Positions 36,001 through 42,000 of a stretch of 64,000 nucleotides of DNA are shown here, one piece after another. The stretch's first letter is position 1. Every line of letters starts with the position of its first letter. The position numbers were made by a program. Source of the DNA: Mytilus edulis (Eukaryota); contig NC_092345.1 in NCBI RefSeq assembly GCF_963676685.1, positions 92,628,001 to 92,692,000 of the forward strand. The letters run 5' to 3'.

Positions 36001-39000
36001 GTACCTATATATGGTAAAACCCGAAGATTTGTCACCGCTTCAACTCCAATATTCAAATAGATAAACACAATGTAATTATCTGATTGGTCAATCTTCAGCT
36101 GTGATGCAAACATGAAATTATGTATATTGTCAATTTTATAGATCTTGCATTGTTTATATTTTTTGCTGTAAGTGTAATGCCAATTTATTGCATTATACGG
36201 GTAGTACTGATACTGTGATACATCGAAAGAACACGGAAGCATGTACTATACCGGGTTTATTTGTAACGCCCTAAAACTATATCCCTATACAAATCTAATG
36301 AATCTATTACCCTTCTTTTGCATTTTTGAATCTTAAATTCAGTGTTTCTTCAACAATTCGGTTATGAAATTCAAGCAAAATCATTTTAGCAGTGACTTAT
36401 TCCTCTGAAAGAAGGGTGGGTTATTCCTTATTCCGGAACTGTTGTTGATTTCCAACCTTGCCTTTGTAACACTTCTTTTCATTGGCCAATTTTTGTACTG
36501 GTTACCGGAGACTTGTAAAATTATTGCGTTTGCTCTAAGTGTGAATCAAATAATTGCCTTACCAGATGGCAGTTTTGATAAAGGTAATTTTATTGGATAA
36601 TCTAATTCTGATTTGAAAACAGCCGGGAAGACGGAAGTTGCCTTTAAGGCTTTATCAAGAACTTTTGAATGACAATAGTTATAAGTAACAGTTAGGTATA
36701 CTAAAAACATAGGTATTTAAAAGTAGAAGAATATTATTGAAAAATTTCATGGGTCATTCAAAGAAATCCATGGTAAAAAAACGCCCACATCGGTCACAGA
36801 GACTCGGTGAGACAAATGGAGAGACAGGCCATAACACAAATCATTGTGTACTGACTCATTCTTGGATGAAAAATAAAATTTTAACACTTAAACAGAATTA
36901 CATGTCACAGGGTAATATGGCCACTTAATCTTTGTAAATTAAAATAGGGCGTTGAATATGTGACGAAATATAATGTTGCAAACCATTTATTTCACACTGA
37001 AAGTACATAAAATATTAATTATAATAAACATTTATTTCAAATGTTAACTTGAAGTTTCCTTCTAAATTGAACTATGAATTGGATAGAAGTACATGCATGT
37101 TAAGGCCTAAAAAAAATGTGATTACCTGAAAGTAGGGAAAAAGTTAGGGTGTCCCTTATGTAGCGTGCATGCTTAAGTGTGTGAAACTCGCATTAGTACG
37201 AGTTCACCGTATATATAGTGCTAGAAAAAGTGGCGGGTTGCATGCATAATAACTTCGTGCAGAGTAGTATATAGAGTAAAGTCTTTTTCTAACTGTCCGT
37301 CAATGAATGAACGTAGTAAATATATAGTACACACAACATATAGTGTAGTACTAGTATATAATTGTACTCTAATAAATAGCTACGGTGACATACAAATGTA
37401 CATATATCCTTATCTATCTCCATTTCCGTATTTACCTTTGCACATGAACGAGGTAAACAACTGTAATGGTGGTCACTTTGTTTACTTGTCTATATTCTAT
37501 TTATTTGGGGATATTGGTTAACTTTAGAATTACTTATAGTTCCGTAACTCTTTCTTCCGAGACCGGCCATGAAATTATCCTTGTCGGGACTTCCTGTTCT
37601 GGCACGTGCCCGGCCGGGCTCGTTGTCCATAGGAACTATAAGTATGACGTCACTCACCGGGTTCTGGGCAGTCTACATTAAGGATTTAAAATGAGCAGAC
37701 GCTCATATCGTTTGGCTTTCAAATATGGAACGTTATAAGGACAAGTAGACTAGCCACCACCGTATTTTAGTATATTTATTCATGTAATCGTATGTTCAAC
37801 CATAATGTATGTCTTCAAATAAACATCTTGTTTATATTTACGTAGTTTTACGTACTTTGTCCAATATCCCAGAACTTGGGTAGACAACGGGAAAACGAAG
37901 CCAGTGGAAACTTCCACTCCCGTTACATTGGGGGCTCGTCCGAGGGATATTTGAGGACAATAACTTAAACAAACATTGTGTTTGTACATTATTTCGGCGA
38001 TATGGTCGGAATAAAAGGTATTTTTGTATCCCTAGGAGTCAAAATCGAACAGTTTATTGTTCGTCTGCTTGTCATTTCCGCTGTTTGTGCCGGTCCGACA
38101 ATGACCAGTACTGCATGTAATATCGTTTTTTTACAACAATACAATTAAAGGTGACTTACCTTCAGAAAATGAAATTAGAAATCCAGATTTTAAATTCCAA
38201 ATTGGAGCACAAGGTGAACATTTTGTTCACGTTCCAGAGGAAATATGCTGGTCTTGCATAAGAGGAAAACAAACACAACATTTTTGTGTACACCACATCA
38301 AAATAAAATATTTAGCTGCATTTTATCGTGGTAGAAAGCTTATTATGGCTTTTCAATTTCCAGGAAGTCGGCGATTGTTTACGCCATGTTTACAATATGA
38401 CGTCATATTTTCGACGTCAAAGCACCTGCCATCTAAGGAATGTTTGTATGGAGGTACCAATGGGGAATACTCATTGTCGTTCTAACCATGAAAAAGTTGT
38501 TTAATTTGTTAGTTTTGTTTATTGGTTCGTATTCATATTTATTGTCATAAATGGATTTGGAAAATCAAATAATTTGTTTTGATTATACTTCAAATTGTTT
38601 TGGATTAAAAAGTACATTTTGTACTTTGTACTTGCATTTCTGTCATGCAGTATTGTCTGCATATCTATGTCTTGTCAGTGTGGATGTAATAACAATTATT
38701 TACCTTTCTTGCATGGAAAGGAGGGAATTAACAATACTCAAACTTAAAAGTGGTACCGTAAGTCATAGGCTATATTGTGCCATCATGGATATTATACTGG
38801 AAATTTGTCCGGTTTATTTTGATATTGTAAAAAGGACTAAAAGTACAGTTTTTGTACTCGGTTATATTTATAATATAATATCTTGATATTTATTTTAACG
38901 TTGATCTTTGGAAATAAACTGAATTATCTCAGTTTGGTGGGATTGTTACGTCAGTTGAGGAAAATAATACTGAATCTTTTCAGTTGCTAAGCAATGTGGC

Positions 39001-42000
39001 TTAGGTAAATGTAGAAATTGTGGATATAGCGAGGATTTGGATTAAAATGACATTTTTGTCATACAGCTGGAATAGGGTTGTCTGGTACGAGTTGTGACTA
39101 GAATAAAGATAATAGAAGAACGTACACTCATTATCTTAGCTGTTGTTGGAAGCTGCTTTCGGTGGTGTATACATATAGAGGCAATTTTGGAAATACCTTA
39201 GGTGCTAGAATGGCGCGAGAATAGGTGTATATTTTGCGTATACATTTTTATTGTAAACCTTAATTGGTTCACCATGGGTATGTTGTCCACATGACTAAGA
39301 ATATTGTTTGGGGATTGCTGGAATACAAGGAATGATTTATTATTACAGTTCAATTGTTTTATATGACTTTCTAATTTTTGAATATATTTAATAAACAAAC
39401 AATCAGTTTGTATGGATTTCAGTATAGAAATGTGTGTTTTATATGGTTAAAGTAATACCATGGGCTATATGCTTTCGGTGACCAATAAAATTACATATTG
39501 GGGCACCCGATCAAGTGGTGCAGTACTCGTGTATGATAGACTTTTAAAGACTCTTGGTGAGTCAGGATTTTATAAGAAGAATGTGCTTCTTAATTTATTC
39601 CAGTGTCTGACAGAATATAGGTGGTAAAACTGAAACTGTTTCAGTGCGTGGATAGCTGGCCACAATGAGGGAACATATTGGATTTTATATTGGCCTTTTT
39701 GCCGATAAGTTTAACGTAACTAAACCACATGGAATTATAAATGTTGGGGAACACTTACTTGGACTACTTTACAGATTTGGAACCTCTACTAGACGAATTT
39801 TACCTTATTTACCTACCTGGAACCTTGGACAAGATGTGTGCCTGGATGCTCCGCTCGAACTTTATAATTGGATTCCTTACTCCGTGATGATGTCTCGTGA
39901 TGTATTTGTGACTTTTGAACATTTAGTGAATGACAATTGAATACTTTGAACTATTTATCAAATTATTTATTGACATTAACAGTAAATTAATTGTTGTTGA
40001 TAATTATATGTGTCTGTATTCTAAATTTTGGTAAGTATACCTCACCGATCTTTGGACTAATGTGTGGGCACATTATGTCTTAAGAGAGGGGGAGTGTAAT
40101 GGTGGTCACTTTGTTTACTTGTCTATATTCTATTTATTTGGGGATATTGGTTAACTTTAGAATTACTTATAGTTCCGTAACTCTTTCTTCCGAGACCGGC
40201 CATGAAATTATCCTTGTCGGGACTTCCTGTTCTGGCACGTGCCCGGCCGGGCTCGTTGTCCATAGGAACTATAAGTATGACGTCACTCACCGGGTTCTGG
40301 GCAGTCTACACTAAGGATTTAAAATGAGCAGACGCTCATATCATTTGGCTTTCAAATATGGAACGTTATAAGGACAAGTAGACTAGCCACCACCGTATTT
40401 TAGTATATTTATTCATGTAATCGTATGTTCAACCATAATGTATGTCTTCAAATAAACATCTTGTTTATATTTACGTAGTTTTACGTACTTTGTCCAATAT
40501 CCCAGAACTTGGGTAGACAACGGGAAAACGAAGCCAGTGGAAACTTCCACTCCCGTTACACAACCAAAACATTTTAAATGTAAATAGCCAAGAGTCTGAA
40601 GAGAGAACTTTTTGTGTTGCCAGACACAGCAACACTGCAAAGTCTTCGAAGTATTGATTTTGGTTCTTTACAAATGGACCCCTTCATTGTTAGTTCAGCC
40701 ATATTGAATAGAAGCAGTTTTTCACAATAGAGGTATAAATGTACTGAATACTATGTAGTCCAAATAAATACCACGTCTGGCCAGGCTATTTTGTTTTTTT
40801 TTCTTTGACGCCTTCCTTCGATGTCATAACGCTGAAGCCATTTATTATGTCGGGACATTGAGAGCAAATTTTGGGGGAACTTTGAGACCTAATTTTGACC
40901 TGAAATTTGCTTTGCCGGTTAGGAATTTTTGCGTAGTTACAAATTCCTACCCTTTTTGAGCTTATTTTTGCACGATATTTCCAGAAATATCCAACAGAAA
41001 TGATAAAATAAGTTATGATTCCATTTGAGGTGGACAAATATTTATGTTTCCAAAAAATTTCACAGAACTACCAAAATTCGTCACTTCCGAAGAGTATTAA
41101 ACTTGGTAAAATTTTATGGACCAGAATTTCTAGATAATGTAAATCGACTGATTCAGGATTTCAGGTCCATCAAATTTTAAAAATTACTCATACACTTGTC
41201 TATAAAAAAGTACATAATTTGAAATCAGAATGACCTATTCACCATTTCTGAATCTAATACTTGCTGGGTAATATTTTCAAAAGCATTCATCAAGATCAGG
41301 GCTTACGTTACCAGGCGACTTGGGCGAAGAAGTCGCTTTCCCGACGGTCACTTCGCTTTCCCTGACCCCCAAAAGCGAAAACAAGTCGCCCTGTTCTTGA
41401 CGATACTCGCTTTCAGTCCCTTCCGTCATTGGACATTTTCAAATTTTACAAAGTTGATGAAACATCAATTTTTTATTGATAATTAAAGAAATTTAGACAT
41501 AATACTATTCATTATCTTTAGAAAAGAAGTTGAAGCATTGTCTTTGCAGTGTGTAGCGGGTTATTTGATAAAAATACAACATTTTAACACTTCGTGCATT
41601 TCTGCAAGTTCCGGTGCTTGTTACTTGAAAACGTGCATCAACCTAAATTTCGGCGGCAAAATAAGTTTGTTGCTTTATCTAAACGGGATAAAAGTTGCCT
41701 CCAGTAAATGTTTAATCCATTTATTGCTTTAAAAACGTCATGTTCCTTTCCAAATAACTTGTCAAACATCGTTTATTTTTGTAAATTTTCTTGCATTCGT
41801 CCGCCATTGACCGATATCTAAACTACGAATCTGAACCGGACAAGCTATGACCTAAATCTGTACTTTTACAATAATTACTACGGACACACGGATGGAAGGA
41901 ACAGCTGACAGAAGAATTTGATCCCAAAGGGAAAAATTACGTATTCCACTAGCATTAAGAGACTTTTGGTTACATCTAATTGATTGGTGTATATAATTCC

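What the first reader, a model, noticed from the sequence alone, without database searches (positions are those of the whole stretch)
37462..40560. Very young gag/pol-less LTR element carrying three unexplained sense-strand ORFs
Seen: all cis signals for retrotransposition are intact (LTRs with 2/466 mismatches, CAAC TSD, tRNA-Pro PBS, PPT), but there is no RT/IN/PR. The 2.17-kb interior instead holds three non-overlapping sense ORFs, each with A at -3: ORF1 at 38101-38485 (one frameshift), ORF2 at 38551-38886 (111 aa, Cys-rich and hydrophobic) and ORF3 at 39665-39940 (91 aa). ATG-initiated non-exonic ORFs of 90 aa or more are otherwise essentially absent from this AT-rich window. Inference: this is a recently active non-autonomous retroelement that may carry its own small accessory genes, a possible satellite/cargo system parasitising a Pro-PBS Gypsy helper. 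The bivalve element Steamer, to my knowledge, uses a Leu PBS, so this would be a different lineage.
Basis: partly seen in the sequence, partly recalled or inferred. Interest (0 to 1): 0.72.

Follow-up and report, generated by a model that had tools for sequence, protein, structure and literature searches.

The report
Young protein-less LTR retroelement in mussel
This is a recently inserted, non-autonomous LTR retrotransposon of a mussel-type genome whose three small reading frames look like drifting leftovers, not working cargo genes, so it is a fairly ordinary kind of genomic parasite.

Summary
The structure is real. There are two 466-bp LTRs with 2 mismatches, TG..CA ends and a CAAC target duplication. 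A 13-nt tRNA-Pro-type primer binding site follows the 5' LTR, and a 13-nt polypurine tract precedes the 3' LTR. The 2167-bp interior has no gag, protease, RT or integrase signal: 0 of 57 stop-free segments reach a Pfam cut-off.

The "three accessory genes" reading is not supported.
- **ORF1:** relatives show a 162-aa frame starting at 38002, not 38101. It is intact in one Mytilus coruscus protein, shorter in an unnamed contig, and frameshifted once here. Replacements between copies are no more conservative than random single-base changes (7 of 31 against about 30% expected). Models are unfolded (pLDDT 39.5 and 0.34).
- **ORF2:** no relative, a length that shuffles reach 13% of the time, and T, not A, at -3.
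- **ORF3:** one relative, a 94%-identical copy.

Best reading: a mid-sized LARD/TRIM-like element copied in trans by an unidentified helper. No bivalve DNA could be searched, so copy number, per-copy ORF state, dN/dS and the helper remain untested.

The parts
37458..37461 (.). Target-site duplication, left copy (CAAC)
   Evidence: Identical 4 bp flank both LTRs. The chance of any 4-bp match is 1 in 256.
37462..37927 (+). 5' LTR, 466 bp, with TG..CA ends. It carries a TATA-like motif at 37637, a CRE-like palindrome at 37645, an E-box at 37603 and AATAAA at 37818.
   Evidence: 464 of 466 positions identical to the 3' LTR. The motifs come from a plain pattern scan. Their roles as promoter and poly(A) signal are inferred, not shown.
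37857..37960 (+). Predicted U5-leader stem (37857-37870 pairs with 37944-37960) that encloses the LTR end and the PBS
   Evidence: RNA fold of 37845-38010: -48.7 kcal/mol, z = -2.22, and 3 of 200 shuffles fold as well. This is a prediction only, and no covariation test was possible.
37929..37941 (+). Primer binding site, tRNA-Pro type, 13 nt, one base after the LTR
   Evidence: The same 13 letters form the 3' part of a mouse tRNA-Pro reverse primer (PMC8191763) and the core of the MLV PBS probe (PMC4587795). No mussel tRNA-Pro was available for comparison; there are 0 tRNA genes in the window.
38002..38485 (+). ORF1, the homologue of a 162-aa frame. It is broken here by 1 frameshift, with 0 in-frame stops in the two pieces.
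   Evidence: P0001 (Mytilus coruscus, 162 aa) and P0002 (unnamed contig, 133 aa) both start at the equivalent of 38002. The 5' piece is 38 of 46 identical and the 3' piece 86 of 119 identical to P0001.
38551..38886 (+). ORF2, 111 aa, 8 Cys, hydrophobic, with no relatives
   Evidence: None of 5 word-sharing candidates scored. No Pfam or PDB match. T at -3. A length of this size is reached in 12.9% of shuffles.
39665..39940 (+). ORF3, 91 aa
   Evidence: P0003 (71 aa, unnamed contig) is 94% identical over 73% of ORF3. No Pfam or PDB match. AF2 pLDDT is 47.7.
40082..40094 (+). Polypurine tract, 13 purines abutting the 3' LTR
   Evidence: Sequence read directly.
40095..40560 (+). 3' LTR, 466 bp
40561..40564 (.). 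Target-site duplication, right copy (CAAC)

Best explanation
The element at 37462-40560 is a recently inserted, non-autonomous LTR retrotransposon of a family present in Mytilus. It keeps every cis part needed to be copied: an LTR with pol II-type promoter and poly(A) motifs, a tRNA-Pro-type PBS inside a predicted U5-leader stem, a PPT, TG..CA ends and a 4-bp target duplication. It encodes none of the enzymes or capsid proteins. Its RNA is therefore most likely packaged, reverse-transcribed and integrated by the proteins of an unidentified autonomous LTR element that accepts the same primer and LTR ends.

The three sense frames are most likely relics or by-products and not genes the element needs. 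ORF1 and ORF3 probably descend from sequence that once coded and now drift. ORF2 may be a chance frame.

Shown: the anatomy, the absence of known domains, the existence of at least two other copies, and the lack of amino-acid-level constraint in ORF1. Inferred: trans-copying by a helper, the promoter and poly(A) roles of the LTR motifs, and the relic status of the ORFs.
For: - **Anatomy:**
- **No protein domains:** 0 of 57 stop-free interior segments of at least 25 aa, on both strands, reach a Pfam cut-off. The 6 weak hits (E 0.011-0.51) are all to unrelated families. There are 0 canonical CX2CX4HX4C knuckles in six frames.
- **ORF1 is restricted to copies of the element.** Only 2 proteins reach E<=0.001 among 1.84 billion representatives. 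One is the unnamed-contig copy. The other is a weak repeat-inflated match to an Ig-repeat protein. No longer gag-pol form was found.
- **ORF1 differs between copies.** It is 162 aa in P0001, 133 aa in P0002, and has one frameshift in the window.
- **Replacements show no constraint.** Those scoring above 0 in BLOSUM62 number 7 of 31 and 3 of 8 (window against P0001), 4 of 11 and 0 of 5 (window against P0002), and 9 of 39 (P0002 against P0001). Random single-base non-synonymous changes of the same codons give 29-33%.
- **No confident fold:** AF2 pLDDT 39.5 (ORF1 homologue) and 47.7 (ORF3). The Atlas's own model of P0001 has pLDDT 0.34 and pTM 0.14.
- **ORF2** has no relative.
- The first 46 residues next to the PBS are better conserved (38 of 46) than the rest (86 of 119). 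This fits a cis-acting leader conserved at the RNA level.
Against: - A 162-codon open frame is far too long to be chance in DNA of 34% G+C. It has stayed open in a copy that is only 72% identical, which could mean selection in master copies.
- Three long frames all on the sense strand occur in at most 2.5% of shuffles.
- ORF1 starts in a good context (G at -3, G at +4) about 60 nt after the PBS, where gag normally starts.
- A Cys/His cluster spanning 14 residues is kept in ORF1 of all three copies, with one Cys-to-His change.
- The conservative-replacement test is crude and the samples are small (31, 16 and 39 differences).
- Only protein sequences of other copies were available, so no dN/dS was computed.
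- Only copies with an open frame enter protein databases, which biases what could be seen in either direction.
Confidence: 0.72

Rival explanations
1. ORF1, with or without ORF3, is a real element-encoded protein. It could be a minimal gag- or nucleocapsid-like RNA-binding protein, or a small secreted or membrane protein. The family would then be semi-autonomous, supplying one protein of its own and borrowing the enzymes.
For: - The frame is intact at 162 aa in M. coruscus at 72% identity to the window copy.
- It sits where gag starts, in a good start context.
- A kept Cys/His cluster spans 14 residues, with an aromatic residue after the first Cys in the window copy.
- The N-terminus has a hydrophobic stretch, with a maximum Kyte-Doolittle (KD) hydropathy score of 2.08 over 15 residues.
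- Three sense-strand frames are rare in shuffles.
Against: - It is broken in this very young copy and shorter in a second copy.
- Replacements are no more conservative than random.
- There is no Pfam, PDB or Atlas relative.
- The Cys/His spacing is not the canonical knuckle.
- Models have pLDDT below 50.
- The cysteine count varies between copies: 7 in P0001 and 5 in P0002.
Confidence: 0.12
2. The interior is a deletion derivative of an autonomous element. ORF1 would be the diverged start of the helper's gag, and ORF3 the tail of its last gene.
For: - ORF1 and ORF3 lie at the two ends of the interior, next to the PBS and near the PPT. Deletion derivatives usually keep parental sequence there (established knowledge of LARD/TRIM origin).
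- The 5' end of ORF1 is its best conserved part.
Against: - phmmer with the intact ORF1 homologue found no long polyprotein among 1.84 billion representatives.
- No gag or pol Pfam signal appears anywhere in the interior, even at E<=1.
- For ORF3, only proteins of 50-160 aa were searched, so its case is open.
Confidence: 0.3
3. The interior holds captured host sequence, picked up by template switching during reverse transcription. The ORFs would be fragments of cellular genes.
For: LTR elements that carry host gene fragments are known, for example maize Bs1 (recalled, not checked here). The ORFs match no transposon family.
Against: - No cellular homologue of ORF1 turned up in 1.84 billion representatives, apart from one weak, repeat-inflated Ig-repeat match (E 5.8e-5, 29% identity over 42 residues).
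- No relatives of ORF2 or ORF3 other than an element copy were found.
Confidence: 0.08
4. All three frames are chance open frames in non-coding DNA.
For: ORF2 alone is within chance at 12.9% of shuffles. Codon-position composition does not separate the ORFs from other stop-free frames.
Against: A 162-codon ORF1 is too long. A frame of at least 126 codons arises in only 4.7% of shuffles, and three frames of at least 90 codons in 2.5%.
Confidence: 0.1

Closest known systems
LARDs (large retrotransposon derivatives, e.g. Sukkula of barley)
   Same: Both have LTRs, a PBS, a PPT and a sizeable internal domain with no gag, pol or env. Both are assumed to be copied in trans by an autonomous partner (definition seen in passages of PMC7215508).
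   Different: LARDs were described in plants and are much larger. The sizes of about 4.4-kb LTRs and a 3.5-kb core are recalled, not checked. Here the LTRs are 466 bp and the core 2167 bp, in an animal. The conserved RNA structure of the LARD core could not be tested here.
TRIMs, including biv-TRIM of bivalves
   Same: They are non-autonomous LTR elements without coding capacity. biv-TRIM occurs in Mytilus galloprovincialis (PMC6934838: abstract and section 5 read).
   Different: TRIMs are under 1000 bp (PMC10886601 passages). biv-TRIM has 202-218-bp repeats, a 77-80-bp inner domain and no clear PBS. Here the element is 3099 bp with a clear PBS. The conserved 14-nt biv-TRIM motif is absent from the element. 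Its one 2-mismatch hit in the window lies outside, at 41919, where 0.38 hits are expected by chance.
Steamer and Steamer-like elements of bivalves
   Same: They are LTR retroelements of bivalves. Their LTRs also begin TGTAA (PMC8905726 passage).
   Different: Steamer is autonomous, with LTRs of about 177-187 bp and a 12-bp Leu-type PBS. MchSLE1 of Mytilus chilensis has 185-bp LTRs, one 4134-bp ORF and an Asn-type PBS (PMC11046912 passages). Here the LTRs are 466 bp, the PBS is Pro-type and there is no pol.
TRIMp3 elements (Cassandra, Helenus, Ajax) and retrozymes
   Same: They are non-autonomous elements with terminal repeats. Animal Helenus also makes 4-bp target duplications and is thought to depend on Gypsy (PMC10886601 passages).
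   Different: They carry a tRNA- or 5S-derived sequence, or a hammerhead ribozyme, in the repeats. Rfam finds none here at gathering score or at E<=1.

Membership tests
LTR retrotransposon (structural definition) | Two direct long terminal repeats ending TG..CA | tested here: met
   Each LTR is 466 bp, 464 of 466 positions are identical, and the ends are TG..CA.
LTR retrotransposon (structural definition) | Short target-site duplication | tested here: met
   CAAC lies on both sides.
LTR retrotransposon (structural definition) | tRNA-complementary PBS after the 5' LTR and a PPT before the 3' LTR | tested here: met
   The 13-nt PBS has the same letters as a published tRNA-Pro primer and PBS probe. 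A 13-nt purine run lies at 40082-40094. The host's own tRNA-Pro was not available.
Autonomous Ty3/Gypsy, BEL/Pao or Copia element | gag, protease, reverse transcriptase/RNase H and integrase domains | tested here: not met
   0 of 57 interior segments reach any Pfam cut-off and none hits these families at E<=1. There is no canonical zinc knuckle.
TRIM (strict sense) | Whole element under 1000 bp with almost no internal domain | tested here: not met
   The element is 3099 bp with a 2167-bp interior. The size criterion is from PMC10886601.
biv-TRIM | 202-218-bp repeats, a 77-80-bp inner domain and a conserved 14-nt inner motif | tested here: not met
   The sizes differ. The motif is absent from the element at up to 2 mismatches.
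LARD | LTR element with a large internal domain lacking gag, pol and env | tested here: met
   with the definition from PMC7215508. The element is smaller than the plant type members (sizes recalled).
LARD | Internal domain conserved across copies, with conserved RNA structure and no protein product | not testable with these tools
   No DNA of other copies could be fetched. Only three protein fragments of other copies were seen.
TRIMp3 / retrozyme | tRNA-, 5S- or hammerhead-derived sequence in the repeats | tested here: not met
   0 Rfam matches at gathering score in the window and 0 at E<=1 in 37400-40620. 0 tRNA-like genes by ARAGORN.
Steamer-like elements | Leu-type 12-bp PBS, LTRs of about 180 bp and a single gag-pol ORF | tested here: not met
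   The PBS letters differ from those quoted in PMC8905726. The LTRs are 466 bp and there is no pol.

The most novel reading that the evidence does not exclude
ORF1 is a genuine, fast-evolving 162-aa protein made by a gag/pol-less animal LTR element. It would have a hydrophobic N-terminus and a 14-residue Cys/His cluster, and could be a stripped-down RNA-binding packaging protein. The family would then be a semi-autonomous satellite that brings its own coat-like factor to a helper's particles. This arrangement was not found in print for bivalves in my searches.
Probability: 0.1. Interest if true: 0.55.

Novelty: new member of a known kind. Interest (0 to 1): 0.22.

Why it matters
Non-autonomous LTR elements of intermediate size are little described in animals. 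In bivalves, my literature searches found only the 0.5-kb biv-TRIM and Helenus. A very young copy with intact cis signals marks a helper that was recently active in mussels, a group in which retroelement activity is of interest because of Steamer and transmissible neoplasia. The copy may be useful as an insertion-polymorphism marker. It does not by itself reveal a new mechanism.

Tried and rejected
- **Decayed gag/pol:** Pfam on 8 and then 57 interior segments gave nothing.
- **Known RNA families, ribozymes or small-RNA-derived LTRs:** none.
- **Other copies or solo LTRs in the window:** none.
- **Autonomous helper in the window:** I scanned 108 of the 119 stop-free segments of at least 65 aa. 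The 11 that overlap the element were left out because they were scanned. Only host exons were found.
- **Structure route:** both AF2 models were below pLDDT 50, so I did not run fold search, whose matches would be meaningless.
- **Atlas for ORF3:** the best score was 0.86, below the tool's 0.9 threshold. Weak leads to transposase-HTH clusters at 0.83 were not confirmed by Pfam.
- **Ig-repeat protein P0004:** its weak ORF1 match was set aside. It rests on 5 near-identical repeats of one 42-residue stretch at 29% identity. The protein is unnamed and may be vertebrate, so I did not use it further.
- **Codon-position composition:** it does not discriminate.
- **Cluster look-up of the proteins:** it could not be made because the database was off.
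- **Bivalve DNA:** none was reachable, so copy number, solo LTRs, dN/dS, the helper and insertion polymorphism stay unchecked.

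
Full report
**1. Observation**

- **LTRs.** The window carries two direct repeats at 37462-37927 and 40095-40560. Each is 466 bp and they differ at 2 positions. Both begin TGTAATGG and end CCGTTACA. Similarity stops exactly at these ends.
- **Target duplication.** CAAC flanks both sides.
- **PBS.** One base after the 5' LTR lie 13 nt (37929-37941). The same letters occur as the tRNA-matching part of a mouse tRNA-Pro reverse primer (PMC8191763, one passage seen). 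They also form the core of an MLV PBS probe (PMC4587795, one passage seen). After these 13 nt the window departs from the MLV probe. No mussel tRNA-Pro was at hand, and ARAGORN found 0 tRNA genes in the window.
- **PPT.** A run of 13 purines (40082-40094) abuts the 3' LTR.
- **Other copies.** A self-comparison found no other copy or solo LTR in the window.
- **LTR differences.** By direct reading, both are transitions and one is at a CpG. At 2 differences per 466 bp, about 4-5 changes would be expected in the 2167-bp interior since insertion (my arithmetic).

**2. Coding content**

*Known domains.* Pfam scans of the 8 longest frames and of all 57 stop-free segments of at least 25 aa on both strands gave no family above its cut-off. 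Six of the 57 had weak hits (E 0.011-0.51) to unrelated families (LRRNT, Meg, CRF-BP_C, DUF5769, BPTI_nem, TgMIC1). There was no gag, protease, RT, RNase H or integrase hit. No canonical CX2CX4HX4C knuckle occurs in any frame. Rfam found nothing in the window at gathering score or in the element at E<=1.

*ORF1.* The long stop-free frame found two relatives among 3 word-sharing candidates.
- P0001 is an unnamed 162-aa protein of Mytilus coruscus (72% identity, 94% coverage).
- P0002 is 133 aa, from an unnamed 2423-nt contig (87% identity).
- Both begin at the equivalent of the window's ATG at 38002. ORF1 spans 38002-38485 and is interrupted here by one frameshift. There are no stops within the two pieces.
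- P0002 is 29 residues shorter at its C-terminus than P0001.

*ORF1, exhaustive search.* An exhaustive phmmer of P0001 against 1.84 billion representatives returned only two proteins. One is P0002. The other is P0004, a 1011-aa Ig-repeat protein at E 5.8e-5. That score comes from five near-identical repeats of one 42-residue stretch at 29% identity. I set it aside, and because it is unnamed and may be vertebrate I used it no further. No long polyprotein shares ORF1.

*ORF2.* None of 5 candidates scored. The search covered proteins of 61-195 aa only.

*ORF3.* One of 2 candidates scored. P0003 is 71 aa, from a contig of the same length as that of P0002, and is 94% identical over 73% of ORF3. The search covered proteins of 50-160 aa only.

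**3. Are the frames genes?**

*Length statistics.* The window has 4 ATG ORFs of at least 90 aa, 2 of them in the element. It has 26 stop-free frames of at least 90 codons, 3 of them in the interior. The 2000 dinucleotide shuffles of the interior gave:

| Event in a shuffle | Share of shuffles |
|---|---|
| Three or more frames of at least 90 codons | 2.5% |
| A frame of at least 126 codons | 4.7% |
| A frame of at least 111 codons | 12.9% |

ORF1 and the set as a whole exceed chance. ORF2 alone does not.

*Constraint.* The table counts amino-acid differences between ORF1 copies that score above 0 in BLOSUM62.

| Comparison | Conservative replacements |
|---|---|
| Window 3' piece against P0001 | 7 of 31 |
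| Window 5' piece against P0001 | 3 of 8 |
| Window 3' piece against P0002 | 4 of 11 |
| Window 5' piece against P0002 | 0 of 5 |
| P0002 against P0001 | 9 of 39 |

- Enumerating all single-base non-synonymous changes of the window's own codons gives 29-33% expected. The changes therefore look unfiltered.
- This is a crude test on small numbers. dN/dS could not be computed because no DNA of other copies was reachable.
- The 46 residues nearest the PBS are better kept (38 of 46) than the rest (86 of 119). This fits conservation of a cis-acting leader RNA.
- The U5-PBS-leader stretch folds into a stem (37857-37870 with 37944-37960) around the PBS, with z = -2.22.

*Fold.*
- AF2 gave a mean pLDDT of 39.5 for the ORF1 homologue and 47.7 for ORF3.
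- The Atlas's own model of P0001 has pLDDT 0.34 and pTM 0.14.
- PDB sequence searches were empty or at E of about 0.9.
- The Atlas features for ORF3 peaked at 0.86, below the tool's threshold.
- I did not run fold search on such models.

*In favour of ORF1 as a gene.*
- It is long and sits where gag starts, with G at -3 and G at +4.
- It stays open at 72% identity.
- It keeps a 14-residue Cys/His cluster in all three copies.
- It has a hydrophobic N-terminal stretch.

**4. Mechanism**

The element is best read as a non-autonomous LTR retrotransposon.
- **Transcription.** It would start in the 5' LTR, which holds a TATA-like motif at 37637, a CRE-like palindrome at 37645 and an E-box at 37603. 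It would end after AATAAA (37818 in the 5' LTR) in the 3' LTR. These roles are inferred.
- **Copying.** The RNA would be primed by tRNA-Pro at the PBS, plus-strand primed at the PPT, and integrated with a 4-bp duplication. All of this would use a helper's proteins (inference from established retrotransposon biology).
- **ORF1 break.** A copy this young carries a broken ORF1. This suggests that ORF1 is not needed in cis. However, a change after insertion or an assembly error cannot be excluded.
- **Helper.** It is unknown. No RT-bearing frame lies in the window: of 108 segments scanned, only 2 passed Pfam cut-offs, both host exons.

**5. Context**

The two host exons are an Arp2/3 p34-Arc exon at 30188-30424 on the minus strand and a RhoGAP exon at 51720-51992 on the plus strand. 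The element lies between these genes. Whether it is intronic or intergenic was not resolved.

**6. Comparison and novelty**

- **Not biv-TRIM.** biv-TRIM has 202-218-bp repeats, a 77-80-bp core and no clear PBS (section 5 of PMC6934838). Its 14-nt motif is absent from the element.
- **Not a strict TRIM.** Those are under 1000 bp (PMC10886601 passages).
- **Not a TRIMp3 or retrozyme**.
- **Not Steamer-like.** Steamer has a Leu PBS and LTRs of about 180 bp (PMC8905726 passage). The M. chilensis element has an Asn PBS (PMC11046912 passages).
- **Closest concept: LARD.** It works like a LARD as defined in PMC7215508 (passages), at smaller size and in an animal.
- **Literature.** Searches for non-autonomous LTR elements in Mytilus or bivalves (listings and abstracts seen) turned up only biv-TRIM and Helenus. 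Repbase-type libraries and paper supplements were not seen and may already hold this family.

**Verdict:** a new member of a known kind, of modest interest.

Noticed in passing
window 20801-25538, with related pieces at 4827-5549: Arrays of a roughly 500-bp unit lie in two blocks of opposite orientation (about 20801-22334 and 22561-25538). Identity is 82-94% between units. This looks like satellite-like DNA of the kind that transposons carry in bivalves. I did not identify it.
   Followed up: no
window 4237-4632, 43132-43637 and 47964-48128: Short tandem arrays: 79 bp x 5 (98% matches), 169 bp x 3 (92%) and 81 bp x 2 (100%).
   Followed up: no
window 30188-30424 (-) and 51720-51992 (+): Host exons lie on either side of the element. 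One is Arp2/3 complex p34-Arc (E 2.7e-12) on the minus strand and the other a RhoGAP domain (E 2e-6) on the plus strand. A coiled-coil-like frame at 44509-44787 has only sub-threshold hits.
   Followed up: partly
window 13114-14799 (+): A 562-codon open frame rich in Ser, Pro and Lys has strong codon-position bias (chi-square 244) but no Pfam family. It is probably a large disordered exon of a host gene.
   Followed up: no
window 45745-46080 (+) and 46356-46754 (-): The only other non-exonic ATG ORF of at least 90 aa (111 aa) lies here, with a neighbouring 133-codon frame on the other strand. Neither has a Pfam hit. They remain unexplained.
   Followed up: no
P0004 (protein id; not in the window): A 1011-aa protein with five near-identical Ig-like repeats gave a weak match to residues 92-133 of the ORF1 homologue (E 5.8e-5, 29% identity). 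The score is probably inflated by the repeats. The protein is unnamed and possibly vertebrate, so I did not use it further.
   Followed up: no
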